A stretch of 64,000 nucleotides of DNA from Eledone cirrhosa (Eukaryota), in contig OZ024744.1 in assembly GCA_964016885.1 (NCBI GenBank), positions 16,988,001 to 17,052,000 of the forward strand. Direction: 5' to 3'. The notes under the pieces are model-generated. The model ran no database searches, was not told the DNA's origin, and worked only from the letters and a program-made list of their open reading frames with translations. Below are positions 28,253 to 64,000 of this stretch, piece after piece (positions within the stretch are counted from its first letter, which is position 1; each line of letters starts with the position of its first letter). A program made the translations under genes and the position numbers.

Positions 28253-28693
28253 TGTTTTATTTATTAACCACAAGGGTTCACATAAAGTAGACATTAATGA
28301 CAGTACAGGACAATACAGGACGGTACAAATGGGCATTTCTGCGTGTAAAAAAACAGAGGTTGAAATAAAATAACAAAGAAAAATTCCCCAATAGGGGGGA
28401 GACTTCCAAGGGACATTTGTGGAGAAAGCCCATTAAAAGACCACAGTGGCCCTGATCACCAGGGCAAGTGCCCTCTCCCAGTTTTCCACCTTTAATTTAC
28501 AGACACATACTCAGAGAAGGCCCATTCAATCGGGCCATACTTGCTTCTCTCACCCATCTTTCAACAAAATGCTGGGAAGAGAGCACTTCCCTCTCTACCC
28601 TGATTTTCCTTTTCAAATGAAATTTGAAAAAGTTAATCAGGGCATCACCGAAGAGGTAAGTGCTCGTCTTCAGCCCTTTCAAACGTATCCACC
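28253..28693 (-). mobile_element. 3' fragment of a Tx1/L1-like element
   Basis: WWIRLKGLK..FFKFHLKRKIRVER matches the ORF2 C-terminus at 46704; ends in AATAAA next to degenerate (AAT)n. Confidence 0.85.
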
Positions 28694-28696
28694 ATA

Positions 28697-36800: not shown

Positions 36801-37215
36801 CACGGAGGGTTATTATAAGTTTTAAATCCAAATTTATCCTGTTTGTTGTCTGCTTTTCGCGGATTATCGAAATAAAAGGCACGCCAACGCAACCTTTTAA
36901 TGAACGCGTCTGTTTTCTGTATCATGAGTTTTAGGTATGTTTTCCTGCTTGGTACGGGTATTTTCTTTGTAGAAATATTCAGATGTTGTTTCTGCATGAT
37001 GAATATAAGTCAGTAGAGTGCTCAACCGAAGGAGAAAAATAGTAATAATAATAAAATTGAAGACTAAAATCCAAAGAGGGTTCGATAAGGAAAATATATA
37101 TCAAATATATAAGAACCGTAGAGCAAATATTTATTAAAATAACAGATTAAAGTTTAAGCAAAGAATCGCTGCTTTCACCCTTAACGGGAATTTCTGAAAC
37201 TAACAAAGTCAATCT
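33866..37215 (-). mobile_element. Near full-length Naiad-type Penelope element, copy 2, with direct pLTRs
   Basis: 33866-33955 is repeated at 37128-37215, both covering the hammerhead; complete ORF in between; (TA)n on both sides. Confidence 0.95.
34867..36997 (-). pseudogene. Naiad RT/GIY-YIG polyprotein (~710 codons) with one frameshift and one in-frame TAA
   Basis: STKKIP..IKRLRWRA N-terminus, LYRDDGL, CxCx5CPx4C, NIVY..YIG; extra T in the run at 36648-36652 (copy 1 has 4 T); TAA at 35164-35166. Confidence 0.9.
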
Positions 37216-37483: not shown

Positions 37484-37542
<59 letters not shown>

Positions 37543-37545
<3 letters not shown>

Positions 37546-38125
37546 TTTTCTTTATTAACCACAAGGGTTTACATAAAGTAGACATTAAGGACAGTACAGG
37601 ACAATACAGGACGGTAAAAATGGGCATTTCTGCGTGTAAAAAAAAACAGAGGATGTAATAAAAATAACAATGAAAAATTCCCCAATAGGGGGGAGACTTC
37701 CGAGGGACGTTTGTGGAGAAAGCCCATTAAAATACCACAGTGACCCTGACCACCAGGGCAAGTGCCCTCTCCCAGTTTTCCACCTTTAATTTAAAGACAC
37801 ATACTCAGAGTAGGCCCATTCAGTCGGGCCATACTTGCCTCTCACACCCATATTTCAACAAAATGCTGGGAAGAGAGCACTTCCCTCTCTACTCTGATTT
37901 TCCTTTTCAAATGAAATTTGAAAACGTTAATCAGGGCATCACCGAAGAGGTAAGTGCTCGTCTTCAGCCCTTTCAAACGTGTCCACCATACTATCTCTTT
38001 CACCATGGCCACCAGGCAGATAAAAACTGCCTGCCCTTCCCGCCTAAAGGAAGAGGGCAGGGCAATCCTCATGATGGTCTCAGCTGATAGCTGGATCCGT
38101 CCTACACGCGACAGCAGGTGTTTGA
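37543..38125 (-). mobile_element. 3' fragment of a Tx1/L1-like element
   Basis: EGQAVFICLVAMVKEIVWWTRLKGLK; (AAT)n on both sides. Confidence 0.85.
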
Positions 38126-38144
38126 CATAATAATAATAATAATA

Positions 38145-38840
38145 GTGGCTGAAACACCATATTTACAAGGAGGAGACTAGCCCACTGTGCAGGATCTGTG
38201 GAGAGAGAGAGAGGAGACTGTGGCTCACATTGTATCCGAGTGTAAACACCTAGCCCAGACTCACTATAAAGGCTGGAGACATGATGTGATGGGCAGGGTG
38301 ATCCACTGGCACCTATGCAATGTAAACAATTTACCACATTCTGAGAAGTGGTATGAATATAAGCCAGAGTCGGTGATAGAAAACGATCAGATGAAGGTGC
38401 TGTGGGATTTTAGGATACAGACGGACAAGACACTGGAACACAATAGACCTGACCTGGTGGTTTTGGACAAGGAAACGAGATCGTGCCTGATTGTGAATGT
38501 GGCCTGCCCATTCGGCACGAGAGTGCAAGAGAAGGAGGGGGAGAAAATTAACCGATTCCAGGACTTAAAGTGGGAGGTAAAACGGATTTGGAACTGCCAT
38601 GAAGTCAAAGTGGTCCCGATTGTCATAGGCGCACTAGGTACTATCTCAAAAGGTTTCCAGGGATGGTTAATGAAAATTGGTCCCGCCCCGCTTTTTGGAA
38701 CACTTCAAAAGGCATGCTTGCTGGGAACAGCAAAAACCCTCCGATGCGTCCTGAATATCTGAGGCTGCAGGTAGTGGCTTGATATTCATTTCAACAAACT
38801 TTCCAGTTAAATAACATCAATGACTGAGACTCAAAGAACA
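38145..38840 (+). mobile_element. R4/Dong-like RLE element, family A, short 5'-truncated copy
   Basis: CRICG..ETVAHIVSEC knuckle, RHD, HNRPDLVV..ACP..EK, VIGALG; (AAT)n flanks. Confidence 0.9.
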
Positions 38841-38896
38841 ATAATAATAATAATTGTTTCTACTTGTGGCACAAAGAACAATAATAATTATAACTG

Positions 38897-40712
38897 CTTC
38901 ACTTTTGAAGGGCGAAGCTAAGGGCTATTTTGTTTTTTTGTGCAGACCATTTGCCACTTCGCTCCCGCCTCAACTCCATGACGGATTCCGTGCCGTCGGG
39001 GATGGGTATGTGCTCCACTGCTATTGGTGGTGGTAGTGGAGCCATCTCCGGCAATTTTGTTGCTGATGCAGCTACTGCAAATGTAGCAATTGGTGTTTCC
39101 GCCACTGATGCTGCTGCTTTAGTTGTCCGTGGCCTTGGTACGGGTGCCACGGACGTTGCCTTTCTACTCACCGTGGAAGGGGCTTCTGCGTTTGTTGCCT
39201 GCCCTGCTCTTGGTAGCAGTGGACCAGGTATTGGAAGTAGAGAGGCCTTCTTCTTCGCTGTCTTCTGCGGCAAAAGGCCCTGAGGTGACCCTTTGACCCA
39301 CAGAGATAACATTTTGGCCGTCTTCCTTCTACGCTTATAGGGAGTTGGAGTCCTTCCTCAACCTCTATGATATCGGGGATAGCGTCGATACATTCCTGGT
39401 CAGTTTGTATAAGCATTTGCATGCCTATACCAGACCAGTTCTCTCTCCCTATTTTCTATACTTGCAGCATGGCCGTCCTGTCTTCGATTCCAGCAAGGAC
39501 AGACGCGGCCAGCCAGGGTATGGGCAGGTCGGGTGGGACCTGGGTCACTTTGACCCTCACAATTTTCTGTCCGCAGTAGGAGGGCACCAAGACTATCTCC
39601 TCACTCTTTAGGGTTTCCAAAGCGTGAGACTTCGCTTCTTGGGGGGTGGCGAAAAGTACGTCTACTGTGGCGTACTTTCTGCCTCGGGTGATGTGGGTTT
39701 TGCGTGTCCAAACGCATCTCAAGGCCTTTTGGATTTGAGCCTCCGTGGCTCTCTCTACCCGATGTGGGATTTTGCTTACGGTGCGGTAAGTCACCGTCCG
39801 TAGCTGTGGGTCCTTGAAAAAATCGGGTGGAGGTTTCAGGGAGACTCTATTGGCGCTTCTCGTCACCATGGCCCTAGCAACTGCCATCTCCTCCTCTGTG
39901 ACTAACACTGTCTCGATATTTCGGGCGACACCTGCAAAAGAAGTGGTCCCTTTTTCAGCAGCACCACTATTGCTGCCGTTACTGGTCTTACTGGTGGTAC
40001 TGAGATCGCTATTACAGGTATCGATGTCATTGTTGATGTTTTCGTTGGTACTGTTGTTGCTGTTGTTGTTGTTGTTTTCGTTGTTGCTGCTGTTACTGTT
40101 ATTGTGGTTGTTGTTATTGTTGTTTTTGTTGATACTGTTCCTACTATTATTGTTGTTGTGGCTGTTGTTATTGTCATTGTTATCGACCTTACCGCTGTTA
40201 TTTTTGTTGTTGCTGTTGTTATTGATGTGTTGTTGTTGGTGTTATTTTTGGTGTTATTGTTGGTGTTATTGATGGTGTTGTTGTTGGTGGTGTTGTTGTT
40301 GCTGTTGTTATTTATGGTGTTGTTTGTGTTAGAAATATTTGGTCATTTTAAATCTGTAACAATATCATTAAAAATGATATTGTTCCTCTTTTCCTTCGTA
40401 ATATTTTCTTTTATATTTACCTTCACTAGAACGCTGTCTTGTTGACATGTTGACAAAGTCTCCCTCTCTCTGTGTTGTCTGACAGCGCTCTCTCTCTTTC
40501 TTGTGTTATCCATGTTGAAATTTTTTTCTTTCAAAAAATATTTTTACACAAATACGACACCCCATAAAGGGGTGCCGTATCATTTACGAGTGAACCCCTG
40601 TATAAGGTGGGTCACTTCTTCTAAACCTTTATCAAATTTAAAACTTGAATAAAAGGTTTAGAACGGTTGAAATCGAGGTAAAACGTTGAAAAAAACTGGA
40701 GGCAATAAGAAG
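38897..40712 (-). mobile_element. 5' part (5' UTR plus ORF1) of a Tx1/L1-like element, ORF2 absent
   Basis: CYLCGSKGHLRAFC knuckle; close homologue of ORF1 at 62760-63860. Confidence 0.85.
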
Positions 40713-40736
40713 CGTGGCTTTGCCAACAACAACAAC

Positions 40737-40774
<38 letters not shown>

Positions 40775-40775
<1 letters not shown>

Positions 40776-42712: not shown

Positions 42713-42753
42713 AACAACAATAATAATAATAATAATAATTATTATTATTATTA

Positions 42754-42938
42754 TTTCTACATTAGGCACAAGGCCAGCAATTATCCAGTGTATTACTGGT
42801 ACTTTATTTTATCGACCCCGTAAGGATGAAAGGCAAAGTTAACCTCGGCGAGATTTGAACTCAGAATGGCAAGGGCCGTAACTCTATGCGTCAAAGCATG
42901 ACGCCCGACCCTCTACCGATACTGCCAATCCACCGCCC
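42754..42938 (-). mobile_element. tRNA/Nin-domain SINE inserted in (AAT)n
   Basis: Same family as 6464 and 33561. Confidence 0.9.
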
Positions 42939-42939
42939 T

Positions 42940-42974
<35 letters not shown>

Positions 42975-42975
<1 letters not shown>

Positions 42976-44133
42976 GTTGCGTTGAAAACTGCAACAATTG
43001 GATTATCCACATATCTAAGGGAATCACATGATTGGATGATCAAACTCGTTTTGAAACACGAAAGTACCAAAAGATCATATTCCATTACAAAAGATGCACA
43101 AAGATACAGTAATGGACTACAAATTTCAGAAGTCCCATTTACTGCTGAAATGGAAAACACAGAAAAAGCAAAGCAGGTAAAAGTAACTGCAAAGAAAGAA
43201 CTGCTACAGAAACTGGCTAAGAAATGGCAAGAAAAGCCTCTGTATGGAAAATACCCAGAGCGAGCTAACAATCCTGATGTTGACAAAACTTTAACCCATC
43301 AGTGGTTGGCATCCTCTGGACTGAAATCGGAGACTGAAGGACTGATTATATCGGCACAAGATCAGTGTCTGCCAACAAAAAATTACCAAGCCAACATAAT
43401 AAAAAATGGGTGCAGCCCATTATGCCGTGTATGCAAAAAACAACCAGAGACCATTGACCATATAATTTCAATGTGCAGTCCTATAGCTCCAACCGAATAC
43501 CTAAACAGGCATGACAGAGCTGCACAATACATACATTGGATAATGTGTAAGCATTTTGACCTGCCCCATCAAAAGAATTGGTGGGAGCATCAACCACCTC
43601 CCATACTTGAAAAAGATCACATCTCAATCTTGTGGAACTTTAGCATCCAAACAGACCGAAAAATAGATGCAAATAGACCTGATATAATATTGAAGGACTT
43701 TTAAAAGAGGGTATGCCTGCTAATTGATATGTCTGTTCCAATAGACAAGAATGTATCTATAAAAACATTTGAAAAATTGAGCAAGTATAAGGACCTAGAG
43801 CTAGAAATTGGAAAAATGTGGAAATTGAGAACTAAAACAATACCAGTGGTTGTAGGCGCTCTGGGAATGATACCTAAGGGGTCTAATGACTACTTATCGC
43901 AAATCCCAGGAAACCCGCATATACGAGAAATACAAAAGATAGTACTAATGGGAACTGCCCATATACTAAGGAAGATTCTGTCAATATAAGTACATCACAA
44001 GTCTAAACAATAGAGATGCATGTGTGAATATGTATGTTCTTTCTTGAACATGGCGGACCTTGTTGTCTCTTGAGGTCACTGGTTGTGACTTGGTGATAAC
44101 TCGTATGAACATAAAGCAAGATAAATGCAACTG
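42975..44133 (+). mobile_element. R4/Dong-like family B, copy 1 (short)
   Basis: Nearly identical to 45284-46441; TAA at 43702-43704. Confidence 0.95.
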
Positions 44134-44159
44134 TAATAATAATAATAATAATAATAATG

Positions 44160-46441
44160 ATGGCTAGTTAACGGCATTACATTCCTGCTTCCGAATAATG
44201 ATGAGACAAACAATCCCAAAAATTACAGACCGATAACTTGCTTGACCACAATGTATAAAATTTTAATATCAGTCCTAACTGAATACACATATGACCACCT
44301 GATAACAAATGACCTATTTCCCATTGAGCAGAAAGGGTGTAAACGAGGCTCATATGGCTGTAAGGATCAGCTTCTGGTTAACAAAATGATACTGGAAGAT
44401 TGTCATAATAGACCCAAAAATCTATCGATTGCTTGGATAGATTATAAAAAAGCATTCGATAGTTTGCCACACAGTTGGATTGAAAAATGTTTAGAGATTT
44501 TCAAAATATCCCCCGTTGTCAGGAGGTTTTTGTCATTCAGTATGAAGACATGGAAAACGACACTCCTTTTGAATAGTGAAACAAAATTACTGGAACCTGG
44601 AGAAGTTAATATTAATTGTGGAATTTTTCAGGGTGACTCTTTATCACCGTTTTTATTCTGCATCGCACTTATACCATTAAGTAAAATGCTCAATGAAACA
44701 AAACATGGATATAAAGTCTATGACAAAACCATTAATCACCTGTTCTACATGGATGACCTGAAACTATTTGCAAAAAATGATGAACAATTGCAAGGGCTAT
44801 TATCCACTGTGAAGCAGTTCAGTGATGACATTAAGATGGAGTTTGGACTAGATAAATGCGCCAAAGCAACGTTCACCAGAGGAAAGCTGCTGAAGAGTTC
44901 AGACATTAATCTTGATCGGGGGAACGTGATAAGAGAACTTGATCAAGAAAAAACTTACAAATATCTAGGTGTTTGTGAAGGAGATGGAATCAAGCACTCG
45001 ACAATGAGGGAAAGGATAAGGAAGGAATGTTACCGCAGAGTAAGAGCAATCTTAAGAACGGAATTGAATGCAAGGAATAGGATCGATGCCATAAACACGC
45101 TTGCCATACCAGTAGTAACCTACAGTTACAATGTCATCAACTGGTCAAGCACAGAGATCCGTAGGCTCGATATAGAAATTCGAAAATTCTTAACCATGCA
45201 CAGAATGTATAACCCTAAGGCAGATATAGATAGAATATATCTCCCTAGGAAAGAAGGAGGACGTGGGTTAATCCAGTTAGACATTGCGTTGAAAACTGCA
45301 ACAATTGGATTATCTACATATCTAAGGGAATCACATGATTGGATGATCAAACTCGTTTTGAAACACGAAATCATCAAAAGATCATATTCCATTACAAAAG
45401 ATGCACAAAGATACAGTAATGGACTACAAATTTCAGAAGTCCCATTTACTGCTGAAATGGAAAACACAGAAAAAGCAAAGCAGGTAAAAGTAACTGCAAA
45501 GAAAGAACTGCTACAGAAACTGGCTAAGAAATGGCAAGAAAAGCCTCTGTATGGAAAATACCCAGAGCGAGCTAACAATCCTGATGTTGACAAAACTTTA
45601 ACCCATCAGTGGTTGGCATCCTCTGGACTGAAATCGGAGACTGAAGGACTGATTATATCGGCACAAGATCAGTGTCTGCCAACAAAAAATTACCAAGCCA
45701 ACATAATAAAAAATGGGTGCAGCCAATTATGCCGTGTATGCAAAAAACAACCAGAGACCATTGACCATATAATTTCAATGTGCAGTCCTATAGCTCCAAC
45801 CGAATACCTAAACAGGCATGACAGAGCTGCACAATACATACATTGGATAATGTGTAAGCATTTTGACCTGCCCCATCAAAAGAATTGGTGGGAGCATCAA
45901 CCACCTCCCATACTTGAAAAAGATCACATCTCAATCTTGTGGAACTTTAGCATCCAAACAGACCGAAAAATAGATGCAAATAGACCTGATATAATATTGA
46001 AGGACTTTTAAAAGAGGGTATGCCTGCTAATTGATATGTCTGTTCCAATAGACAAGAATGTATCTATAAAAACATTTGAAAAATTGAGCAAGTATAAGGA
46101 CCTAGAGCTAGAAATTGGAAAAATGTGGAAATTGAGAACTAAAACAATACCAGTGGTTGTAGGCGCTCTGGGAATGATACCTAAGGGGTCTAATGACTAC
46201 TTATCGCAAATCCCAGGAAACCCGCATATACGAGAAATACAAAAGATAGTACTAATGGGAACTGCCCATATACTAAGGAAGATTCTGTCAATATAAGTAC
46301 ATCACAAGTCTAAACAATAGAGATGCATGTGTGAATATGTATGTTCTTTCTTGAACATGGCGGACCTTGTTGTCTCTTGAGGTCACTGGTTGTGACTTGG
46401 TGATAACTCGTATGAACATAAAGCAAGATAAATGCAACTGT
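44160..46441 (+). mobile_element. R4/Dong-like family B, copy 2
   Basis: 589-aa RT + knuckle ORF 44242-46011 (NYRPITCL, FYMDD, CRVCK..HIISMC, NRPD); TAA at 46009-46011, with the RLE continuing in frame to 46296. Confidence 0.95.
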
Positions 46442-46703
46442 AATAATAATAATAATAATAATAATAATGATTTTATTTATTGGCCACAAGAGCCGACATA
46501 TAGGGGGCAATACAAAAGACTAGGACTGGGGTTTTACAGAAAAATCGAGTAAACAATATGAATCACAATAACAAACGAGAAAAAATTCCCCAATAGGGGG
46601 GATGACCACCCAGGGTTCGCTCAGGTACCCCACCAATCCTGAACGACCCGACGCTTCGAGAGCACCCTGGAAGGGCACCCCTCTCCTCTTCAAATTTACC
46701 TAC

Positions 46704-49700
46704 CTACAGCCGCATGACCAGAGTAGGCCCAGGCACACGGACCATTCTCGCCACATTCACCCACCTTTCGGCAAATGTACTGGGGGGGGGGGGGGCAGCA
46801 CTTCTCTCTCCACCCTCACCTTCCTTTCCAAGTGAAACTTGAAGAAGTTGATGAGGGATTGGCCGAAGAGAAAAGTGTCTGTCTTCAGTCCTTTCAACCT
46901 CGTCCACCATACAACCTCTTTCGCTACTGCCACCAGACAGAGGAAAATTGCCTGCCCTTCCTGGCCAAAAGAAGGTGGCGGGTCGATCTTCACTATGGAC
47001 TCGGCCGATAGCCGGATCCGTTCTACACGCGACAACAGCTGTTCAACATAACTCCACAAGTCAGTAATGCACGGACACTGGACGAGTGCGTGCAGAACGG
47101 TTTCGTCGCTCTGCGCGCATCTCGGGCAGGTCCGTCTGACAGCACTTCCGTGCCTGTAGAGTTTATCTCGAACTGGCACTGCCAAGCGAGGGATTTTTGG
47201 AAATTATCCATCGTCCTCGGCTCGAAAGTCCTCCAGTACAGACTGGTTAGTTCGACTGTTGACACCCAGAGCCTCTCCGAGGGCGTCGTCGCACTTGCCC
47301 ACCACTAATCCTCTATAGAACTCGAGAGTGGAAGTTCCACTGATCGCATTGTCCACCTGGTAGAGGGCAGTGAGGGCCTGGCAATATTCCAGATGCCAGG
47401 CACCCAGTCTCGGTCTCTTCTTGACCCAGGACTGCAGCTCAGTCAAAGAAACGAGCTGCGGAAAGGCCCGTCTGATAAACGGTGACCACACCTGTTCACC
47501 GTTTAGGCAGAATATCTGGAGATGACGTAGCCTCAGCGCGTTCCTGTGCATCATTAGCCACGGCATGCCCAGCCCTAGATGTAGAGGGTGCTAGCAGCAG
47601 ATGGACCACCTCACCAGCGGAACTTGACCCCTCCACAAGAATTTGAAGAGGAGCCGCTCCAAGATGGCGAGGCAACGGGGTCAAGGGACGACAGTCAGAC
47701 GGTAGTAGATGACGGACGCGATGTACGCGTTCACCACCTCCGCCCGACCTTTCAGTGATAGCGTCATCCCAGCCCATTTCTGGGTGAGACTGGCTACCCT
47801 TCCCGTCCCCTCGTCCCAATTCTTATCCACCAGGAGGTCTGGCCCGAAGCAAACCCCGAGCAACTTTACCGGTCCGTCCGTCCAGCGCCTAACGATGCTG
47901 TTGGACGGCATGGACTTGCCTCTCCAGGTGCCGAGTTGCAAGCCCACCGACTTTTCCGGGTTTAGTTTTGCTCCCGTCAACCTTTCATATTCCTCCAATA
48001 AGTTGCCGACCACCTCGATTTCTGAGGTGTCCGACACCATCACGGTGATGTCGTCCGCATAAGCCGACACAACCTTTCCGCGTTCCGGTTCGAGCGGGAT
48101 GCCCTGCAACAGCTCCAGCTTCCGCAGTAAGTGCTCGAGAGTCAATACGTATAGAAGGGAGGAGAGAGGGCACCCTTGACGGACCGATCGGGAGACCTGA
48201 AAAGGTTCCGAGAGGTGGCCATTAATTTTGACCATCGAGCAGGTGCCACTGTGCATTGCAGCGATCCAGCTTCTGAAGACGGGGCCGAAGCCAGCCGCCT
48301 TGAGGACAGCCTCCAGGTACCGATGGTCGATCCTATCGAATGCTTTCGATTGATCTAAATTGATCAGAGCCACATCGAAGCCAGATTTACACCCTACCCT
48401 CTCTATGATATATCGCATTAGGTGGAGGTTGTTGTGTATGGACCTGGTTGGGATTGCGCAAGTTTGCGCCTCCCCAACCAAATCCCCGACGAAAAGCGCC
48501 AACCTCTTCGCTAACACCCTGGCCAACATCTTAAACTCTGTATTGAGCAGAGTTATGGGCCTGAAATTGTCTAATGTGTCCCTCTTGTTCTCGTCTTTCC
48601 TTATCAGCGTCACTACGCTCCGGCTCACAGAACTGGGAATACTCCTGATTTGCTGCCAGTTGCAGCAGAGGGCTTCGAGTCTGGCATATTTACGTAAAGC
48701 TCGTAGGGCAGACCAGCCGAACCGGTGACTTGCGCCTCATGCAGCCGACAAGAGCATCCTGATATCTCGGCTGAAGTAATTTGGCCTTTCGCAGCGCCCA
48801 GCGTCAGCCGTCGAGTATTGCGGCAAGCCTTCGAGGTAGGGACTGAAGTCCGCCACCATCTCTGACCCGCCACTTCCCCCGAACAACCGAGCAAAATGTT
48901 GGCGAAAGGCCTCACACATCCGCTTGGAATCGCTCAGCTCGTGCCCGTCTCGGCCCGTCAAAGACCGAATCGTGGTTTTATTACCACGCTGCGCCTCTGC
49001 CACGCGGGCCCATCGAACAGCTTTGGTTCCCTCGTTTCTCAGAGCACGCGCCTTAGCTCTGACAATGCAACCTTCGTGTTTCGCATTGAAGAAATGGTCT
49101 AATGCCATTCTCGCCGCTAGCACATCAGTTGCAATGCCACTATCAATAGCCTCGTCTAACTTATCTACCAACTCCCCCTCCTTTCTATTTTTCTCTAACG
49201 CTACTTCTTTAGTAAACTCTATCGACATTACTCTAATCTCTCTTTTGAGAGCCCCCCCCCCCATCTATTGTTGACGACTCCCCCTGTCAACTTTTTCTTA
49301 ACTAAATTGTTGCCCTGGTCCCTGTGAGCCTTACGTGCCGGAAATGACATGTTTAGTTTCCAGTAACGAGGTCCTAACCTACGCGTCTTATCTAGGTCGA
49401 TCATTCAGATCACAAACTTGTGATCTGAATAGGCGACCGTTTCAAAACGTGGACAGCTTACACTATTTCTGTGTATTTTCCTAATGAATATCCTGTCTAT
49501 ATACGATCTAGATGACACTATGTGGTTAGCCCAAGTCCACACTGGCGCATTAGGAATATCTAGTCGGTACCTGTCAGACAGTTGGAACTGGCTGATCAGG
49601 TTCTTGAGACTTTTGCACCCCCCGCTCCTATTGGATACTCCCACACAGTCCCAGCGTGCGTCTAAGATGCCGTTCCAGTCCCCCGCTAACAGTAAAGGGC

Positions 49701-50098
49701 GAGACGTACCCAGAAAGGCTTCCAGGCGTCTAAAGAAGTCCGACCGTCCTGCCCCAGTAGGAGCATAGACGGCCACCAGTCTAAAGGCACCACCTTCGTT
49801 ATTGTTCACGTCCAGGACCACCAACTTCCCGTCCGGGTCTCGGAAGATCGACCTTACCTCGAGATCTAGGCCTTTCCTTAACAGGCCTGCCACCCCGATT
49901 CATTCCCGGCCGGCTAACCGGTGCAAAGATCTGATAGTCGTCGAAAATGGGGCCTAGTGCGCGCGTGTCGGAAATCCTGGTCTCGCTGACGGCAATTACA
50001 TCCATTTCTAGAGACCTAAGGTCGTTGAGCAGGTGACCCTGCTTCCAGGACGATCCCAGGCCTCGAGCATTTAAACACCCTACTCTTAATACGGCCAT
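46704..50098 (-). pseudogene. ORF2: APE endonuclease + RT + zinc knuckle (frameshifted)
   Basis: CLNARGL..SET..VYAP..GDWN..YIDRIF..SDH; FRPITLLN, DQSKAFD, VRQGCPLS, YADD; CPRC..HALVQC. Confidence 0.9.
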
Positions 50099-50129
50099 GT
50101 TGGCAGGTTAAACAGAGAGAGAAGAAGGT

Positions 50130-52093: not shown

Positions 52094-52317
52094 GTTTTTT
52101 TTTTGTTTTTTTCCTCGTAAATTTTTTAAAATGTAAAAAAAGTTCAAATATTTGGGCCAAAAGGCCCAAATATTATTCTTTCCCCTTCAGGGCAAAGTCC
52201 AATGGCTTGTATGCCTTACACAACAACAAAATTCAAAAAATCAGTTTTGATAGGTAAATAAGTGAACTTACGGGAGCGAGCAAAAAGACGTCCGTTCAGA
52301 CTCAATAAAAATAATAC

Positions 52318-52374
<57 letters not shown>

Positions 52375-52375
<1 letters not shown>

Positions 52376-54727
52376 TGCTAAATCAATACCACCCAAGGAG
52401 GAAGTGCAAGAATTCTGGGAAAAGATCTGGGCCGAAGAAAAAGTTCATAACATACATGCCCCATGGATAGACAGACAAATGAAAGAAACAGCTCACCTTG
52501 AAGAACAAACATGGGAAAATATAACAGTTGAACAGCTGCGCTTGGCTCTAAGAAAAACCAGCAAATGGAAATCCCCAGGAAAAGACAAAATACAAAACTT
52601 TTGGATAAATGCCTTCACAGAGTCTCATGAGCTGTTAGTCCAACTTTACAATGAAATAGTTAAGGAGCCAGAAAAGATACCATCATGGCTAGTTAACGGC
52701 ATTACATTCCTGCTACCGAAGAATGATGAGACAAACAATCCCAAAAATTACAGACCGATAACTTGCTTGACCACAATGTATAAAATTTTAACATCAGTCC
52801 TAACTGAATACACATATGACCACCTGATAACAAATGACCTATTTCCCATTGAGCAGAAAGGGTGTAAACGAGGCTCATATGGCTGTAAGGATCAGCTTCT
52901 GGTTAACAAAATGATACTGGAAGATTGTCATAATAGACACAAAAATCTATCGATTGCTTGGATAGATTATAAAAAAGCATTTGATAGTTTGCCACACAGT
53001 TGGATTGAAAAATGTTTAGAGATTTTCAAAATATCCCCCGTTGTCAGGAGGTTTTTGTCATTCAGTATGAGGACATGGAGAACGACACTCCTTTTGAATA
53101 GTGAAACAAAATCACTGGAAGCTGGAGAAGTTAACATTAATTGTGGAATTTTTCAGGGTGACTCTTTATCACCGCTTTTATTCTGCATCGCACTTATACC
53201 ATTAAGTAAAATGCTCAATGAAACAAAACATGGATATAGAGTCTATGACAAAACCATTAATCACCTGTTCTACATGGATGACCTGAAACTATTTGCAAAA
53301 AATGATGAACAATTGCAAGGGCTATTATCCACTGTGAAGCAGTTCAGTGATGACATTAAAATGGAGTTTGGACTGGATAAATGCGCCAAAGCAACGTTCA
53401 CCAGAGGAAAGCTGCTGAAGAGTTCAGACATTAATCTTGATCGGGGGAACGTGATAAGAGAGCTTGATCAAGAACAAACTTACAAATATCTATGTGTTTG
53501 TGAAGGAGACGGAATCAAGCACTCGACAATGAGGGAAAGGATAATGAAGGAATGTTACCGCAGAGTCAGAGCAATCTTAAGAACGGAATTGAATGCAAGG
53601 AATAGGATCGATGCCATAAACACGCTTGCCATACCAGTAGTAACCTACAGTTACAATGTCATCAACTGGTCAAGCACAGAGATCCGTAGGCTCGATACAA
53701 AAATCCGAAAATTCTTAACCATGCACAGAATGCATCACCCTAAGGCAGACATAGATAGAATATATCTCCCTAGGAAAGAAGGAGGACGTGGGTTAATCCA
53801 GTTAGACATTGCGTTGAAAACTGCAACAATTGGATTATCCACATATCTAAGGGAATCACATGATTGGATGATCAAACTCGTTTTGAAACACGAAAGCACC
53901 AAAAGATCATATTCCATTACAAAAGATGCACAAAGATACAGTAATGGACTACAAATTTCAGAAGTCCCATTTACTGCTGAAATGGAAAACACAGAAAAAG
54001 CAAAGCAGGTAAAAGTAACTGCAAAGAAAGAACTGCTACAGAAACTGGCTAAGAAATGGCAAGAAAAGCCTCTGTATGGAAAATACCCAGAGCGAGCTAA
54101 CAATCCTGATGTTGACAAAACTTTAACCCATCAGTGGTTGGCATCCTCTGGACTGAAATCGGAGACTGAAGGACTGATTATATCGGCACAAGATCAGTGT
54201 CTGCCAACAAAAAATTACCAAGCCAACATAATAAAAAATGGGTGCAGCCCATTATGCCGTGTATGCAAAAAACAACCAGAGACCATTGACCATATAATTT
54301 CAATGTGCAGTCCTATAGCTCCAATATGTCTGTTCCAATAGACAAGAACGTATCTATAAAAACATTTGAAAAATTGAGCAAGTATAAGGACCTGGAGATA
54401 GAAATTGGAAAAATGTGGAAATTGAGAACTAAAACAATACCAGTGGTTCTAGGCGCTCTGGGAATGATACCTAAGGGGTCTAACGACTACTTATCGCAAA
54501 TCCCAGGAAACCCGCGTATAGGAGAAATACAAAAGATAGTACTAATGGGAACTGCCCATATACTAAGGAAGATCCTGTCAATATAAGTACATCACAAGTC
54601 TAAACACTAAGGATGCATGTGTGAATATGTATGTTCTTTCTTGAACATGGCGGACCTTGTTGTCTCTTGAGGTCACTGGTTGTGACTTGGTGATAACTCG
54701 TATAAACATAAAGCAAGATAAATGCAA
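52375..54727 (+). mobile_element. R4/Dong-like family B, copy 3 (longest; ~235-bp internal deletion)
   Basis: 645-aa ORF 52404-54341; junction GCTCCAA|TATGTC near 54324 lacks the sequence equivalent to 45800-46034. Confidence 0.95.
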
Positions 54728-54745
54728 ATAATAATAATAATAATG

Positions 54746-55410
54746 ATTTCTTTTTTGGCCACAAGGGCTGACATCAAGAAAAACATTACAGACGGCACAG
54801 GACGGTACAGGACGGTACGATGTGTGGGTTTTGTGCGTGTAAATACCTTTATTATTTATATAAGAAAATAAAAAGACATAGAAACATATATATATAAACA
54901 ATAAAAATGAAAATTGAAACAATGAAAAATTCCCCAATAGGGAGGAAACCTCCGAGGGTTACTCGTAGCGAAAACCACACAAAATACCACGGCCACCCTG
55001 ACTACCAGGGCAAGCACCCTCTCTCAATGTTTCCATTTCTCAAACTACAGGCGTATATTTAGAGCGGTCCCGTTCACTCAGACCATTTTCGCTACATTCA
55101 CCCACCTTTCAACAAACTTGCTAGAAGGCAGCACTTGCCTCACCGCCCTGATTTTCCTCTTGAAGTGAAACTTGAAAAAGTTAATTAGGGATTCGCTGAG
55201 AGGAAAGTGTCTCTCTTTAACCCTTTCAACCATTTCCACCACACAATCTATTTCGCCATGGCCACCAGGCAGATGAAAACCGCCTGCCCTTCCTTCTCGA
55301 AGGAAGACGGCGAGACCATCTGTACAATGGACTCAGTTGATAACCGGATCAATCCTACACGCGACAGCAACTGTTCGACATAGCTCCACAAGTTAGCAAT
55401 CCTCGGGCAC
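54746..55410 (-). mobile_element. 3' fragment of a Tx1/L1-like element
   Basis: QCPRIANLWSYVEQLLSRVG..EGQAVFICLVAM. Confidence 0.85.
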
Positions 55411-58400
55411 TGAATTAGTAATTGAAAACCAAACATCTGCTGAAGAACACAGGGAGACTATGAAGGAATTAAAGCAAAAAATACTGAATGAGCTTGCAGT
55501 AGTAAGACATTCTAGTATAAATGATAGAGAACCACTTCAAAAACTCCCAAATACAATCCAAAATAGAAAACGAATAATGATTGGTAATTCTGTGACAAAA
55601 GAAATCATAGAAGAACTATAACCTGATCTTACTGAGTTAAATGAAATCATTTATGCATCTGCTAGAGTAATTGAAACAAGTTGTTTATCACCAAAAAAAC
55701 AAAAAGAGTCGAGCCTTCGAGGTAAACCAATTTGGAGGAGTAGAATCGAAAAGGAGATTGACGTAATGAGAGGAGAAATATCCTTATTGAATGAGTTAAC
55801 CGCTGGAAATGGTATAAGATCCAAGAAGGTAAGAAAGCTAAAGAGAAAATAGTTTCTAGAGAAGCAATAATTTCAACAAAAGAATCTCTGAAACAAAAGG
55901 TCCAAGTAAAAGCACAACAAATTAGTAGATTCGAGAAGCGAAACAACATCTACAGGCAAAATAAGTTGTTCTCATCCAATGCCAAGTCATTTTATAGAGA
56001 AGTAGGGAAGAAAAAAAAAATATTGAAGATAGAAGAAGTTGAAAACTTATGGAGTAAGATTTGGAGTGATGAGATAACATATAATGCTAATGTAGATTGG
56101 ATTAGTCGCCTGGAAAAATCCTACACAAATTTAGAAGAACAGGCGTGGAAAGACATCTCTATAGCGAACCTAAAGACAGCACTCAATAAATCTCATAAAT
56201 GGAAATCTGGTAGAGACAGGGTGCCAAATTTCTGGCTTTCCTCACTTCCGTGCACTCACAATATATTGGTGAAGCTGTTTAATGGAATTATGAAAGATAA
56301 AAAAAACACCTGATTGGATAGCAAGTGGCATTACCTACCTTCTACCAAAGAACAACGGAACCAAAGATCCAAAAACCTATCGGCCCATAACCTGCTTGTC
56401 CACCACTTATAAACTATTAACCTCTATTCTCTTGGAAAAAGCAGACGTGGTTTTGGAGAAGAACAATCTTTTCCCCATTGAACAAAATTGGTGTCGACGA
56501 GCTTCATATGGTTGCAAAGATCAACTTTTGATTAATCGTATGATCCTTGAGAGCTGTCATAATAAACACAGAAATCTCAGTTCTGCATGGATCGATTATA
56601 AAAAAAAACTTTGACAGCATACCACACTCATGGATTCTGAAATCACTGGACATCTTCAAAATCTCACCTGTGATCTCAAACTTCCTGAAACACAATATGT
56701 CATTATTGAACACAAATCTCCAATTGTCTCATTCCACTGGGGTACTGTGCTCTAGGAATATAAACATCAACTGTGGTATATTCCAGGGTGACTCACTTTC
56801 ACCCTTGCTTTTCTGCATAGCTTTAATACCCCTTACATCCGAACTTAATAGAACAGGGTACGGTTATAGAATTGACAACAAAAAAATAAGCCACCTATTT
56901 TATATGGATGATTTGAAGCTATATTGCAAAGATAATGAGGAACTGGAAGGCCTTTTGCGGACAGTAAAAACGTTTAGCGATGACATCAGGATGGAGTTTG
57001 GACTTGACAAGTGTGCAAAAGCCACTTTCAAGAAGGGGAACTCAGACTCAGTTGAATTGGATGCTGAAACAATCATAAAGGAACTTGAGCAGGAACAAAC
57101 CTATAAATATTTAGGGATTAATGAGGGCTCTGGCATACATCATGCAAGTATGAAATAGAGGATAAGGAAAGAATGTTACAGGAGAGTACGTGCACTTCTG
57201 AGATCAGAACTAAACACTCGTAACAAGGTGCTAGCCATAAACTCCTTGGCAGTCCCAGTTGTCACTTATAGCTTCGGTGTGTTGAACTGGAATATGAGTG
57301 GAATCAAAAGAATCGGCACCAAAGTCCGTAAGCTTCTGACCTGTAATAGGATACACCACCCAAAAGCAGATGTAGATCGTATTTACCTTCCTAGAACTCA
57401 AGGAGGCCGTAGCCTGATCCAATTTGAACTTGCTTACAAGACCACCATCATTGGACTGGCCAAATACCTTGAAACAACTAACAACTGTATGCTGAAGCTT
57501 GTTGAAAGGCATGAGAGAAGTAAGAAGCTTCGTTCTATCTTGAAGGAGAGCAAAACATATGTTACTGATCTCATGCTTGATACCCAGGCTGGACAGACTA
57601 AAGAAACTGTTGCAACTGATGCTGTTAGGGACATAAAATCACTGACAAAAGCAAAAGGGCATGACAATTAGCATCAAATTGGGAGCAGAAACCTCTGCAT
57701 GCAAATATGTGGCCCATAGCAAACAAGCTGGTGTTGACCAAAAGCACACCCATCAGTGGCTACGTAGTTCAGGGCTAAAAGCGTAGAGTGAAGGCTTCAT
57801 CTTAGCTGCCCCAGATCAAAGCTAATTGACTCGTAATTACCAGGCCAATGTGATGAGAAACGGAATAAACCCAAAGTGCCGATTCTGCAATGCTGAGGTT
57901 GAAACAGTGGATCACTTAGTCTCTGGATGTAAAGTTTTAGCACCAGTAGAATACAAATATAGACATGACAGAGTTGGCCAATATCTACACTGGGTAATAT
58001 GTCGGAGTTACAAAATCAAAGCTGAAGACAAGTGGTACAATCATCACCCTGAGCCTGTAACTGAAGGAGAAAAAGTAACAATTCTCTGGGACTTTCCTGT
58101 ACATACTGACAGGACCATAAAAGCAAATATACCTGACATCATTGTAAAAGATCAACACAACAAGGTCTGTTTATTGATAGATATGAGCATCCCATGTGAT
58201 CACAATATCGCGGCAAAAGGATTTGACAAGCTACGAAAATATAAAGATCTGCTTATTGAAATTGAGAAAATGTGGCACCTCAAGGCCGTTACAATGCCAG
58301 TGATTCTGGGAGGACTAGGAATGATCGAGAAAGAAACAGAACAATATTTGCGAATGATTCCTGGTTTACGCTCTCTGCACGAGGTGCAAAACATGTTTAG

Positions 58401-58640
58401 ACTGGTACTGCAAATGTATTGAGAAGACCACTATCTCCGTAAAATTGATATCTCTCCTTGTATTTACATATGCATATGCACATGTGTATATATGTATACT
58501 GTTTTTTTTTGTTTTTTTTTTATAATCAATGTACTGTATTAACTGGCTTACCAATGCACAGTGTGAATTTATTTGCCCTAGGTGTCAGGAAGACACTCGG
58601 CATATATCTCAGAAACAATAATGAAAGAAAATAAAAATGA
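55411..58640 (+). mobile_element. R4/Dong-like family C, degraded
   Basis: [40 protein letters not shown]; many frameshifts and stops. Confidence 0.9.
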
Positions 58641-58656
58641 TAATAATAATAATAAT

Positions 58657-61600
58657 GGTTTCTTTATTGGCCACAAGGGCTAACATGAAGAAAAACAGAA
58701 CAGTACAGTGTAAAAAGGGCTATAAAAGACAGAAACGTGTAAAATAAATTAAAATTCAAATAACAAAAATTCCCCAATAAGGGGGAAGCTTTCGAGGGAC
58801 AGTCATGGCGAAAACCACACAAAAGACCACGGCCACCCTGACCACCAGGGCAAGCGCCCTCTCTCAGTTTTCCCACTCCTCAGTCTACAGGCGCATACTC
58901 AGAGCAGGCCCGTTCACGGACCATTCTCGCTACACTCACCCACCTTTCAAAAAACTTACTAGAAGACAGTACTTGCCTCTCCACCCTGATTTTCCTCTTC
59001 AAGTGAAACTTGAAAATGTTAATCAGGGATTGGCCGGAGAGGAAAGTGTCTGTCTTCAACTCTTTCAACCTTGTCCACCACACAATCTCTTGCGTCATGG
59101 CCACCAGGCAGATGAAGACTGCTTGTCCTTCCACTTTAAAGGAGGATGGCGGGACTATCTGCACAATGAACTCAGTCGATAACCGGATCCGTCCTACACG
59201 CGACAGCAACTGTTCGACATAGTTCCACAAGTCAGCAATCCTCGGGCACTGAACGAGTGCGTGAAGAACGGTTTCGTCACCCTGCGCACATCTCAGCTAA
59301 AAGCATCTCCGTGCCTGTGGAGCTTATCCTGAACCGGCAACGCTCCCCAGTAGCACTGCCAGGCTAGGGATTTCTGGAAATTGTCCATAGGTCCGGGGCT
59401 GAGAGTTCTCTTAAAGAGAGCAAACAGCTAATCGTCTTCGACGCCCAGGGTCTCCCCGTGAACGAGGTTGTTCTTCCCCTCCACTAGCCCTTTATAGAAC
59501 GCCAAGGTGGATGTTCCACCGATATCAGTGCGCAGCTGGTAGAGACCGGTCAGCGCCTGGAGACATTCCAGCTTCCAAGCGCTATCCCTTGGTCTTTTTC
59601 TGATCCAGGACTGAGCTCTATCAAGGAGACGAGCTGGGGAAAAGCGTGTCTGGCAAACAGCGACCACACCTGTTCACCGCCAAAGAAGCACCAGAGATGT
59701 TGCAGCCTGAGCGTATGTTTGCGCATCATTAGCCACGGCACACTCAGTGCTCCAAGCAACGGATGCTGACAGCAGATGGATCCTTTGACCATGGGAACAC
59801 GTCCCTCCACAAAAAGCGGAAGAGAAAGCGCTACATTTTGGTCAGAGTTGGACGGGGTAGGGTACGACGGTCAGGCGGTAGCAGATGACGGACGCCATGT
59901 ACGCATTGGCCACCTCCGCTTGACCTTTCAGAGACAGCCTTCTCTCAACCAATTTCTGGGTGAGAGAAGCCACCCTGCTCGTCACCTCGCTCTAGTTTTT
60001 CTCCCTCTGGAGGTCCGGACCGAACCAGACCCCGAGCAATTTAACCGGTCCCTCCGTCCAGTGCCCCACGACGCTGTCGGACGACATGGACTTGCCTCTC
60101 TAGGTGCCGAGTTGCAAACATACCGACTTTTCCTGATTTATCTTTGCTCCTGTCACCACTTCGGAATCCTTGAGAGTGGGGCCGAGCATCTGGATATGTT
60201 TGGTACTGGACACCACCGCGGTCACGTCGTCGGCGTAAGCTGACACGGATCTTCCGCATCCCAGTTCGTGAGGTACCTACTTATGGTCTCCAATTTGTGC
60301 AGTAATGGCTCGAGGGTCAGTACGTACAAGAGGGACGAGAGGGGACAATCTTGGCGGACCGAGTGCATGATGCTGAACGGCTGGTACAGGTGACCATTCA
60401 CCCTCACAATCGAGCAGATGTCGCTGTGCATCGCAGCGATCCAGCCTCTAAAGCCGGGTCCGAAGCCGGCTGCCTCGAGGACTGCAGCCAGATACCGATG
60501 GTCGACCCTATCAAATGCTTTAGATTGATCCAAGTTGATCAGAGCCCCACCCATGCCAGGTTCCTCAACCACCCTCACTATGATGTATCGCATGAGATGG
60601 AGGTTTTCGTGGATGGATCTGTCTGGAATGGCACATGTCTGCGTGTCTCCCACCAGATTACCGACGACAAGCGCCAATCTCTGCTAACAGCTTGGCCAAA
60701 ATCTTGAACTCTGCGTTTAGCAGAGTTATGGGCCTGAAGTTGTCTATAACGTCCTCCTTGTTCGCGTCTTTTCTCAGCAGTGCCACCGCTCCCCGGCTCA
60801 TAAAACTGGGAATGCTCCCGTTCTGCTGCCAGTTGCCGTAGATATCTGCCAAGAGGTCGCCGAACAAGTCTGTAATGTACGCATAAATCTCGTAGGGCAG
60901 ACCATCCAAACCTGGCGATTTACCCCTCGAGCAGTCAGACATCGTTTGCCGTATTTCACCTGCTGTTATCGGCTCTTCGCAGCACTGCACTGCGGCCGTC
61001 GAGAGCCGCGACAGTCCGTCGAGGTATGTACCGAAGTCCATACAGCGATCCGGCCCATCGCCGCTCCCGAACAATTGAGCAAAGTGCTGTTGAAAAGTCG
61101 CATACATCTGCTCGTGTTCTAGCAACATGCGCCCATTTTGATCAGGCAAAGCCCAAATTGTGGACTTGTCACCACGTCGCGCCTCCACCACCCGGGCCCA
61201 TTGAACGGCTTTCGTTCCCTCGTGTCTTAGAGCACGCGCTCTAGCTCTGACAACGTAGCCTTCACGCTTTGCGTTGAAGAATTGGTCGAGTGCCAAATCT
61301 CGCCGCAAGCACGTCGGTTGTGATACCTGTCCTAAACGCCTCTTCTAGCTTTCTAACTAACTCTCCCTCTACTCTATTTTCCTCTATCATTACTCCTTTG
61401 CTAAACCTTATCGATTCTACTTTAATAACCCTTTTAAGGGTAAACCACCACCTGTTGTTGACGATCGCACCCGTCAAAGCACGCTTAACTTATTCACTAA
61501 TCCGGTTTCTGTAAGCTTTGCGCGCCGGGAACGACGCGTTCAGCTTCCAGTAACCGGGGTCCGTGTAGTCGGCTACTTTAAATTGTGGACAACCTACACT

Positions 61601-64000
61601 AGCCTTATCTGTTTCCCTACAGAATACCCTATCTAAATACGATCTGGATAACCCGATGCGGTTTGCCCATGTCCACATTGGCACATTCGGATAATTCAGT
61701 CTATACGTGTCAGACAGATCAAAACGTCTGAGCAGGTTGTTGAGGCTTTTACACCCTCCTGCCCTGTCTACTAGGCCCACATTATCCCAGCGTGCATCTA
61801 AGATACCGTTCCAGTCGCTCACTAACACTAAAGAGCGGGACGTTCCAAGAAAGGTCTCTAGACGTCTGAAGAAATCTGTCCGTCCTGCTCCTGTTGGGGC
61901 GTAGACGGCTACTAGGTTGAAAGCATTGCCTTCGTTGCGGGTCACGTCCAGCACCACCGACTTACCTTACGGGCCCAAGAATGGCGAGATCCAAGCCTCT
62001 CTGGAAAAGCACGGCAACCCATCCCCCGATCCTGGACGGCTGGGAGATGTATATACATCGTAGCCGCCGAAGATCGGTGCGAAGGCTCGTGCTTCGGAGA
62101 TTCTGGTCTCGCTGATGGACACCACATCTATGTTTAGTGACCTGAGGTCGTTGAGCAGGTGACCCTGCTTCCAAGATGACCCCAGGCCACGTACATTTAT
62201 ACATCCTATTCTAAGTACGGCCATGTTGAATGAGAAACGGGGTAAGTAAGAAAGGATCACTTACCTTGATCGTGTGGTGAAGGGACAGTAGAAGCGTCCC
62301 TTTGGCTGGTCATGGGTGTTTCCAAGAGGATGTCGGTGTATATCCTCTTGGTAACCGACACTCTGAAGTCTCCAACTGCGTTGGAGACCTTTTGTTTTAA
62401 AAGTTTGGAATGTTCTATTCATATTTCAATTATGCTTATGTTTGTCGGGAGAGGTGTTGGTGGGGTGTAGTAGTTTTTCTGTGATGTCTGTGTGCTGCTT
62501 TATATGTTGTAGGAGTTCTTTATTTGCCATGTGTATTGGCTGTGTACTTTTTGTGGGGGAGGGGGGTATTGTGTTGCTGTTTTCTTTTTGTTGCTGTTGG
62601 GTGTGTAATTTGTTGTGTTTGCAATGTTGATATTTTTAGTGATACTGGTGGTGGTGTGGTTGTTGTTGGTGGTGATGCCTGTGGTGGTGATGGTGGGATG
62701 GTGGGATGGTGGTGGCGTTGTTGCAAGTTTCCTTGCAGCCTTTACCCCTCTCCGTTTACCTTCGATTTTAGAGAGTGAAGCTAAGGGGTCTTTCCTTTTT
62801 TGTTTTTTTGTGGCAGACCGTTTGCCTCTTCCCTCCCGCCTCATACTCCATATCGAATTCCGTGGCGTCTGGGAGGGGTATGAACTCCACTGCTGTTGGT
62901 GGTGGTAGTGGAGCCCGCTCCGGCGATATTGCCGCCGGTGTAGCTACTGCGACTGTTGGTGTTGCCGCCACTGCTGCCGCTGTTGTCCCTGGCCTTGGAA
63001 TAAGTGCCACGGACGTTGCCCTCCTATTCACCATGGAAGGGTTTTCTCCCGCTGTTGCCTGCCCCGCTCTTGGTAGCAGCGGATCCGGCGTCGAAAGGGG
63101 GGAGTGCTCTTCTTGGCTGTCTTCTGCGGGCAGAAGGCCCTAAGGTGACCCTTCTGTCCACAGAGATAGCACTTTAGGCACCTTCCCTCCACGCTTATAG
63201 GGAGTTGGAGTCCTTCCTCGACCTCTATGATATCGGGGACAGCGTCGATACATTCTTGGTCAGATTGTATAAGCATTTGCATGCCTATACCTGACCAGTT
63301 CTCTCTCCCTATTTTCTCTACTTGCAGAGAAAATAAGGAGAGAGAACTGTCCTCGATTCCAGCAAGGACAGACGCGGCCAGCCAGGGTATGGGCAGGTCG
63401 GGTGGGACCTGGGTCACTTTTACCCTCATAATTTTCTGTCCGCAGTAGGAGGGCACCAAGACTATCTCCTCACTCTTTAGGGTTTCCAAAGCGTGAGACT
63501 TCGCTTCTTGGGGGGTGGCGAAAAGTACGTCTATTGTGGCGTACTTTCTGCCTCGGGTGATGTGGGTTTTGCGTGTCCAGACGCATCTCAAGGCCTTTTG
63601 GATTTGAGCCTCCGTGGCGCTCTACACCTGATGTGAAATTTTGCTTACGGTGCGGTAAGTCACCGTGCGCAGCTGTGGTCTTTGAAGAAATCGGGTGGAG
63701 GTTTCAGGGAAACTCTATTGTCGTTTCTCGACACCATGGCTCTTTCCACTGCCATCTCCTCCTCCGTGACTAACACTGTCTCTATATTTCGGGCCACACC
63801 TGCGAAAGAAGTGGCCCCTCTTTCAGCGGCACCATTATTGTTGCCGCTATTGGTCTTGTTGTTGGTGCTGTTGCTGTTGCTACTGCTAAAACGGTGTTGT
63901 TGGTGTTGTTGCTGTTATCACTTTTGAAGTTGGTTGTGTTTTTGGTGCCACCGTTGTTGTTGTTTCGGTGCAATTTGTATTGTTGCTGTTGGTGTTGTCG
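58657..64000 (-). mobile_element. Tx1/L1-like LINE, family 2 (5' end runs off the window)
   Basis: ORF2 from ATG 62224 (MAVLRIGCINVRGL) to ~58885 with APE and RT motifs; ORF1 with CYLCGQKGHLRAFC; frameshifted. Confidence 0.95.

What the first reader, a model, noticed from the sequence alone, without database searches (positions are those of the whole stretch)
37490..64000. 26-kb (AAT)n-targeted array: two unrelated retrotransposon clades with a strict opposite-strand rule
Six R4/Dong-like RLE insertions (three families) are all on +; five Tx1/L1-like APE segments and a SINE are all on -. Almost every junction is an (AAT)n run (55410 is an exception). (TAA)n targeting is established for Dong. 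Here an APE-endonuclease clade appears to use the same microsatellite on the other strand, and each insertion regenerates target, giving a self-extending array (inference). Read-through would produce antisense RNA to the neighbouring clade, as in a piRNA-cluster-like trap.
Basis: partly seen in the sequence, partly recalled or inferred. Interest (0 to 1): 0.75.

Follow-up and report, generated by a model that had tools for sequence, protein, structure and literature searches.

The report
Opposite-facing retrotransposons stacked on AAT repeats
In this likely octopus genome two unrelated kinds of jumping gene, plus a very common short element, sit in the same AAT repeats facing opposite ways and pile into stacks tens of kilobases long, likely because their enzymes cut opposite DNA strands and each landing leaves fresh repeat for the next.

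Summary
Observation confirmed: six R4/Dong-like RLE segments on +, five L1-group (Tx1-like) APE segments and a SINE on -, joined by (AAT)n; the stack runs on to about 68.3 kb (~31 kb). The rule holds elsewhere in the genome: 69 of 72 Dong-Tx1 neighbours face opposite ways, so it is strong but not strict. The refutation test failed to refute: 38/41 full-length and 29/68 truncated Tx1 5' ends abut AAT (background 3%), 1/68 abuts ATT. Target-site duplications of the SINE (13-20 bp) give a cut site ATAAT^purine (18/18 purine), pointing to endonuclease choice. The SINE shares a CUUGU stem-loop 3' end with the Tx1 families and is their likely passenger, but mostly uses short sites. Polarity follows simply from which strand each enzyme nicks; no pairing beyond a shared target was seen and nothing supports the piRNA-trap idea. 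Precedents: Dong on (TAA)n in molluscs, Kibi/Koshi on microsatellites, TRAS/SART opposite on TTAGG. New: an (ATT)n-type Tx1 target shared with an RLE clade, and the SINE partner. The scan already reported this system at eight or more other places in this genome.

The parts
37491..37544 (.). (AAT)18 run, left end of the array, after a (TA)n stretch and a Penelope element
37545..38129 (-). Tx1-like family c, 3' 585 bp, 5'-truncated; (AAT)5 at its 5' junction
38145..38840 (+). R4/Dong family A, 3' piece (CCHC + RLE motifs, 3' UTR)
38855..38873 (-). 19-bp SINE 3' remnant flanked by a ~16-bp duplication of the DongA tail
   Evidence: sequence
38890..40726 (-). Tx1-like family e: 5' UTR + ORF1 only, broken off in ORF1; natural 5' end abuts (AAC)3(AAT)12
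   Evidence: same 5' end in L112, L202, L392
40775..42712 (+). R4/Dong family A, 5'-truncated (RT, CCHC, RLE)
   Evidence: RVT_1 E 1e-17
42751..42941 (-). SINE (~190 bp) with CUUGU stem-loop 3' end shared with the Tx1-like families
42974..44134 (+). R4/Dong family B, 5'-truncated; shares private variants with the next copy
44159..46441 (+). R4/Dong family B, 5'-truncated (RT, CCHC, RLE)
   Evidence: RVT_1 E 4e-28; only R2 proteins hit in PDB
46469..52303 (-). Full-length, frameshifted Tx1-like family a: ORF1 with CCHC knuckle, ORF2 APE-RT-CCHC
52375..54726 (+). R4/Dong family B, 5'-truncated, with an internal deletion at 54324
54745..55414 (-). Tx1-like family d, 3' piece; joined to DongC without AAT
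55415..58627 (+). R4/Dong family C, lacking ~2 kb of 5' end relative to full-length copies
58657..64000 (-). Tx1-like family b, full length (5' end at 64467 beyond the window)
28254..28696 (-). Outlying Tx1c copy inside a Penelope terminus with an ~18-bp target-site duplication ending in (AAT)3

Best explanation
This is a nested stack of ordinary non-LTR retrotransposons from two unrelated groups that share the AAT/ATT repeat and face opposite ways, likely because each group's endonuclease nicks a different strand. Shown: Dong-like (RLE) copies read AAT at their 3' end; Tx1-like (APE) copies and the SINE read ATT; both kinds have the repeat at 5' junctions far above background; SINE and Tx1 insertions make 13-20 bp duplications ending in ATAAT followed by a purine. 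Inferred: the APE enzyme nicks 5'-ATAAT^R on the AAT strand and primes reverse transcription on an RNA ending in a CUUGU stem-loop plus AUU; the RLE enzyme nicks the TTA strand; each event leaves repeat on one or both sides, so tails and duplications become the next landing sites and stacks grow with fixed polarity. Dong insertions likely often delete upstream target, giving AAT-less head-to-head joints such as 55414. The SINE likely borrows the Tx1 machinery.
For: Neighbour orientation in 1.06 Mb of fetched loci outside the window: Dong-Tx1 69/72 opposite, Dong-SINE 46/48 opposite, SINE-Tx1 68/73 same strand; 44/44 neighbours at 87 Tx1 3' ends conform. 3' ends: Dong 107/109 AAT; Tx1 130/146 with >=2 units and 13 more with one. 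5' ends: full-length Tx1 38/41, truncated 29/68 AAT versus 1/68 ATT and 3% background; Dong truncations 63/100. Tx1 3' junctions have >=3 units in 63/87 versus 176/1338 of genomic ATAAT^R sites, while TSD-resolved copies add 0-1 extra unit. Base after the nick is a purine in 18/18 genuine SINE TSDs versus 60% expected, P 1e-4, a position RNA annealing cannot select. Shared loop CUUGU with compensatory stems (GGCC/GGCC, AACC/GGUU, UGGC/GCCA) in Tx1 and SINE. TSDs that copy the end of a neighbouring Dong or SINE (L065, L250) show tails reused as targets.
Against: 39 of 68 truncated Tx1 5' ends lack AAT (about 12 are direct joints to a Dong 5' end, others rearranged or unexplained; my reading), and 65 further ends were set aside as internal rearrangements. 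In 40 evenly spaced windows only 2/32 SINE 3' ends have >=3 units, no more than background (P 0.43), so the machinery is not confined to microsatellites. No informative TSD for Dong (0 genuine of 73), so its nick site is not mapped. Only 4 of 129 Tx1 copies gave an informative TSD, so the cut consensus rests mainly on the SINE. Loci are the best-scoring 30 of 40 scored per query, i.e. young copies like the window's. No biochemistry.
Confidence: 0.85

Rival explanations
1. Tail-annealing only: a weakly specific APE nicks AT-rich DNA and the RNA's (AUU)n end selects complementary sites; longer LINE tails would favour longer runs.
For: LINE copies prefer long runs (63/87) while SINE copies do not (2/32); every TSD ends in the sequence complementary to the tail; annealing of target-like RNA is proposed for SART1 (PMC7265360 passages).
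Against: The purine 3' of the nick (18/18; 26/26 clean cases) lies outside the annealed region.
Confidence: 0.2
2. Selection filter: long LINE insertions land at any ATAAT site but survive mainly in existing gene-free stacks, inflating the apparent microsatellite preference and array length.
For: SINE versus LINE difference in run length; some Tx1 copies sit at short unique sites (L006, L096, L105).
Against: Explains enrichment, not polarity or the cut consensus; many LINE copies sit in long runs with no recognised neighbour (43/87 had none).
Confidence: 0.3
3. The array is a piRNA-cluster-like trap: read-through makes antisense RNA against the neighbouring clade and the polarity is maintained by the host.
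For: Head-to-head and tail-to-tail joints make read-through antisense by geometry; 31 kb of contiguous element DNA.
Against: Polarity follows from target strand alone and also holds at dispersed two-element sites; any one transcript would be sense to one clade; similar chains are widespread.
Confidence: 0.07
4. Part of the array arose by local duplication, gene conversion or template jumping rather than by independent insertions.
For: DongB copies at 42974 and 44159 share private variants and a stop; the 5' half of the 42974 copy matches the 52375 copy (99.8%).
Against: Applies to one of 12 segments; other same-family pairs are 71-91% alike with different truncation points.
Confidence: 0.35

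Closest known systems
Dong (R4 clade; Bombyx Dong, DongAg, DongBg, Darwinula Dong1/2)
   Same: Single ORF RT-CCHC-RLE, Myb-like N-terminal motif, (TAA)n on the sense strand; PMC7998251 (passages) gives (TAA)n as the target in most insects, molluscs and cnidarians; PMC3812793 (passages) lists TAA-targeting Dong.
   Different: Nothing of substance; three young families here share the target with an APE clade. No HDV-like ribozyme detected by Rfam.
Microsatellite-specific Tx1-clade LINEs: Kibi (TC)n, Koshi (TTC)n, crocodilian (TTCC)n/(TTTC)n families
   Same: APE-type L1-group elements preferring a simple repeat (PMC4494074 passages).
   Different: Target here is ATT/AAT with cut ATAAT^R, tail is ATT rather than poly(A); not found in the papers searched.
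TRAS1/SART1 on Bombyx (TTAGG)n
   Same: Two lineages inserting into one repeat in opposite directions, endonuclease reading ~10-12 bp and cutting at T^A (PMC7265360 passages).
   Different: Both are R1-clade APE elements at telomeres; here an RLE and an APE clade share a dispersed microsatellite.
SINE/LINE pairs with shared 3' stem-loop (eel UnaL2/UnaSINE1, monocot L1 pair) and SINEU/Tx1-Mar
   Same: Shared 3' stem-loop with conserved loop and compensatory stems (PMC3747384 passages); shared target between a SINE and Tx1 families (PMC4494074).
   Different: SINEU has a poly(A) tail and was paired by target; here an animal L1-group LINE shares a short hairpin and an ATT tail with the SINE. The pairing is inferred.

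Membership tests
R4/Dong clade | Single ORF with RT, CCHC finger and C-terminal restriction-like endonuclease, no APE | tested here: met
   RVT_1 and zf-RVT hits; RHD / RPD..D motifs read in ORFs; PDB hits only R2 proteins
R4/Dong clade | N-terminal Myb/SANT-like domain, no N-terminal zinc fingers | tested here: inconclusive
   A Trp-led helical motif and no CCHH finger seen by eye in a longer DongC copy; not aligned to the PMC7998251 set
R4/Dong clade | (TAA)n target on the sense strand | tested here: met
   107/109 3' ends, 63/100 5' truncations; full-length DongC 5' ends follow AAT in L389, L390
R4/Dong clade | 5' HDV-like ribozyme (shown for Bombyx Dong, PMC3774820) | tested here: inconclusive
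   Rfam scan of 6 loci found no ribozyme family; divergent HDV folds can be missed
R4/Dong clade | RT phylogeny inside R4 rather than R2/NeSL/HERO | not testable with these tools
   No labelled R4, NeSL or HERO references were obtainable
Tx1 clade | L1-group ORF2 with APE-RT-CCHC and intact APE catalytic motifs | tested here: met
   Exo_endo_phos, RVT_1, zf-RVT; 160 bits to human L1 ORF2p versus 85 to R2; N, E, Y, GDWN, D, SDH motifs read
Tx1 clade | ORF1 with CCHC zinc knuckle (feature recalled) | tested here: met
   CX2CX4HX4C visible; zf-CCHC E 1.3e-3, just under the Pfam cut-off
Tx1 clade | Target preference with target-site duplication | tested here: met
Tx1 clade | RT phylogeny with Tx1L/Keno/Kibi rather than other L1 lineages | not testable with these tools
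   No hit carried a Tx1 name; 'Tx1-like' is by architecture
piRNA cluster | Dense uniquely mapping 24-31 nt RNAs from the locus | not testable with these tools
   No small-RNA data reachable
piRNA cluster | Elements biased antisense to one transcript (unistrand type; feature recalled) | tested here: not met
   About half of the array is on each strand

The most novel reading that the evidence does not exclude
Dong, the Tx1-like LINEs and their SINE build each other's niche: SINE landings at short ATAAT sites seed AAT repeats, both LINE clades extend them into 20-40 kb polarised arrays, and read-through of these arrays makes antisense RNA by which each clade silences the other, so that self-assembled arrays act as the octopus's piRNA source loci.
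Probability: 0.1. Interest if true: 0.75.

Novelty: new variant of a known kind. Interest (0 to 1): 0.42.

Why it matters
It adds a target (ATT/AAT, cut ATAAT^R) to the list for APE-type Tx1-like elements, gives a case of an RLE and an APE clade converging on one repeat from opposite strands, and names a likely LINE partner for a SINE that covers about 2.6% of sampled DNA. Together the three classes cover about 6% of 400 kb sampled, so the system shapes repeat clustering in this genome. It offers a clean in vitro test of endonuclease versus RNA-tail control of target choice. Each ingredient has precedent, so a specialist would find it neat rather than startling.

Tried and rejected
DongA 3' end genome search returned nothing because common words are skipped; DongA ends were counted from other loci instead. 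Metagenome scan for sister elements returned only distant (24-42%) relatives, 1 of 80 with an ATT run of 4 or more, uninformative. Sequencing-run search: no RNA holder listed; no reads were laid. Rfam: nothing on the SINE, no ribozyme on DongC. Protein atlas gave only generic RT clusters. Idea that full-length Tx1 RNA carries a 5' (AUU)n leader: 1 of 36 complete copies shows extra repeat inside its TSD (L096), 1 shows none (L189), the rest are uninformative; not adopted. Specific Dong-Tx1 pairing: 20/87 Tx1 3' ends abut a Dong tail, comparable to 6 Dong adjacencies at 25 runs in evenly spaced windows; no pairing claimed. A repeat on the Dong strand beside L063, L070, L078 did not match the Tx1 library and is not counted as an exception. 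No RT tree was built for lack of labelled references; no structure prediction was run as it would not decide strand choice.
Full report
Setting. The window is G000:C28:16988001-17052000 of a 3.0-Gb genome. The nearest named relative of the APE-element RT is from Argonauta hians, 64% identical, so the host is likely an octopod (inference). In Octopus vulgaris, PMC13282606 (passages) lists recently active Dong-R4 (5 families), L1-Tx1 (13 families) and 900 SINE families; the passages found say nothing on targets.

Observation. The + elements carry RT, CCHC and RHD/RPD..D motifs and hit only R2 proteins among solved structures. The - elements carry ORF1 with a CCHC knuckle and ORF2 with APE, RT and CCHC; an 867-aa frame of a sister copy scores 160 bits to human L1 ORF2p and 85 to R2. 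'Dong' and 'Tx1' are therefore group-level calls by architecture and target; no labelled references allowed a tree. The array continues to about 68.3 kb, then three SINEs of reversed polarity follow. Caveats: the 38890 segment is broken in ORF1; two adjacent DongB copies share private variants and a stop against 22 aligned copies.

Genome-wide test. I fetched the 30 best loci for six end queries (a seventh query was empty; 40 candidates were scored per query), 59 longer stretches (three more cover the window's right flank) and 40 evenly spaced 10-kb stretches. Among adjacent pairs outside the window, Dong-Tx1 were opposite in 69 of 72, Dong-SINE in 46 of 48, and SINE-Tx1 on the same strand in 68 of 73 (junctions de-duplicated by sequence). 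In the evenly spaced set, 10 of 25 runs of four or more units touch one of these elements and all 14 contacts conform; SINE, Dong and Tx1 cover 10.2, 7.2 and 5.9 kb of 400 kb. About a dozen of the AAT-less truncated ends are direct joints to a Dong 5' end, like 55414; 37 of 100 Dong 5' truncations lack AAT and several clip the neighbour's 5' end, which I read as upstream deletion by Dong insertion (inference; PMC3774820 passages mention variable target deletions at R2 5' junctions).

Cut site. Informative target-site duplications were found for 19 of 142 anchored SINE copies (one is a tandem duplicate and was dropped); 17 of the 18 are 13-20 bp, they end in ATAAT (16, one after removing a tail unit ends otherwise in the listing) or ATAAC, and the next base is A or G in 18 of 18 against 60% of genomic ATAAT sites, P 1e-4; a looser search gave 26 of 26 among its clean cases out of 36 hits in 188 copies. 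Tx1 LINE copies gave 4 genuine cases among 16 hits in 129 copies, plus 28254 in the window, all of the same form. Dong gave none in 73. Because RNA anneals only 5' of the nick, the purine points to the endonuclease. LINE copies favour long runs (63 of 87 with three or more units versus 176 of 1338 candidate sites), the SINE in evenly spaced windows does not (2 of 32, P 0.43); tail length or survival bias could explain this and it is unresolved.

SINE partner. The SINE's last 20 nt align with all four Tx1 3' ends (shuffle P 0.003-0.017) and with no Dong end (P 0.25-0.79). All share a CUUGU loop closed by a 3-4 bp stem that changes on both sides between families (the pattern selected on the loop, so it tests the stem only). 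With the shared strand and cut site this makes the SINE a likely Tx1 passenger (inferred).

Mechanism. APE nicks ATAAT^R on the AAT strand, RLE nicks the TTA strand (the latter inferred from tail polarity). Duplications and tails leave repeat beside each new copy; TSDs that include the end of a neighbouring Dong or SINE (L065, L250) show such reuse. Polarity needs no interaction between clades: SINEs at an ATT motif inside the DongC 5' UTR face the Dong way (L388), and 20 of 87 Tx1 3' ends abut a Dong tail, about what shared use of runs gives. The piRNA-trap idea is geometrically possible but untested.

Comparison with print. Dong on (TAA)n including molluscs: PMC7998251, PMC3812793 (passages). 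Microsatellite-specific Tx1: PMC4494074 (passages). Opposite use of one repeat: TRAS1/SART1, PMC7265360 (passages). Stem-loop SINE/LINE pairs: PMC3747384 (passages). Dong ribozyme: PMC3774820 (passages). PMC4640811, PMC3531059, PMC4824008 (passages) and PMC12988792 (term search, no hits) added no target or partner for octopus elements. Searches found no report of an ATT-targeting Tx1, of RLE/APE sharing, or of this SINE's partner. Kojima and Fujiwara 2004 and the Tx1L endonuclease paper were not held, Repbase is not searchable, and I opened no supplements (those of PMC4494074 and PMC13282606 may bear on novelty).

Earlier scan notes. Eight listed reports (455 notes fit the words) describe the same system elsewhere in this genome; none near this window. 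They are not independent evidence; my counts were made here.

Verdict. Real, genome-wide, mechanistically plain; a new variant of known site-specific retrotransposon behaviour. Interest 0.42.

Noticed in passing
window 27143-37130: Penelope-like (GIY-YIG/RT) elements in (TA)n, including a 3-kb pair at 96.5% (28787-31770 vs 33865-36864); their terminus carries (AAT)3 and was hit by a Tx1c copy at 28254.
   Followed up: partly
window 23758-26952: 755-bp inverted repeat (98.4%) around a Penelope-like fragment.
   Followed up: no
window 2-2824: 42-bp tandem array, about 67 copies, CpG-depleted.
   Followed up: no
window 8752-9255 and 11449-11895: Fragment of another RLE-type element (-) and a Helitron-like helicase fragment (+), by eye only; no Pfam hit.
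   Followed up: no
L063, L070, L078 (DongB 3' flanks): An unidentified repeat, apparently a fold-back with a TATT/AATA centre, holds three DongB insertions.
   Followed up: partly
L134: Tandem series of ~94-bp Tx1c 3' ends and of ~57-bp SINE 3' pieces, possibly template jumping or local duplication.
   Followed up: no
L171-L206: Most full-length Tx1a copies carry internal deletions of 0.1-4.8 kb with both ends intact.
   Followed up: no
L238:6538-9528: 997-aa open frame of an RTE-like APE-RT element in an evenly spaced window, likely young.
   Followed up: no
Tx1 3' ends, e.g. window 46474-46482: An AATAAA signal lies about 10 nt before the ATT tail, yet no copy seen has poly(A).
   Followed up: no
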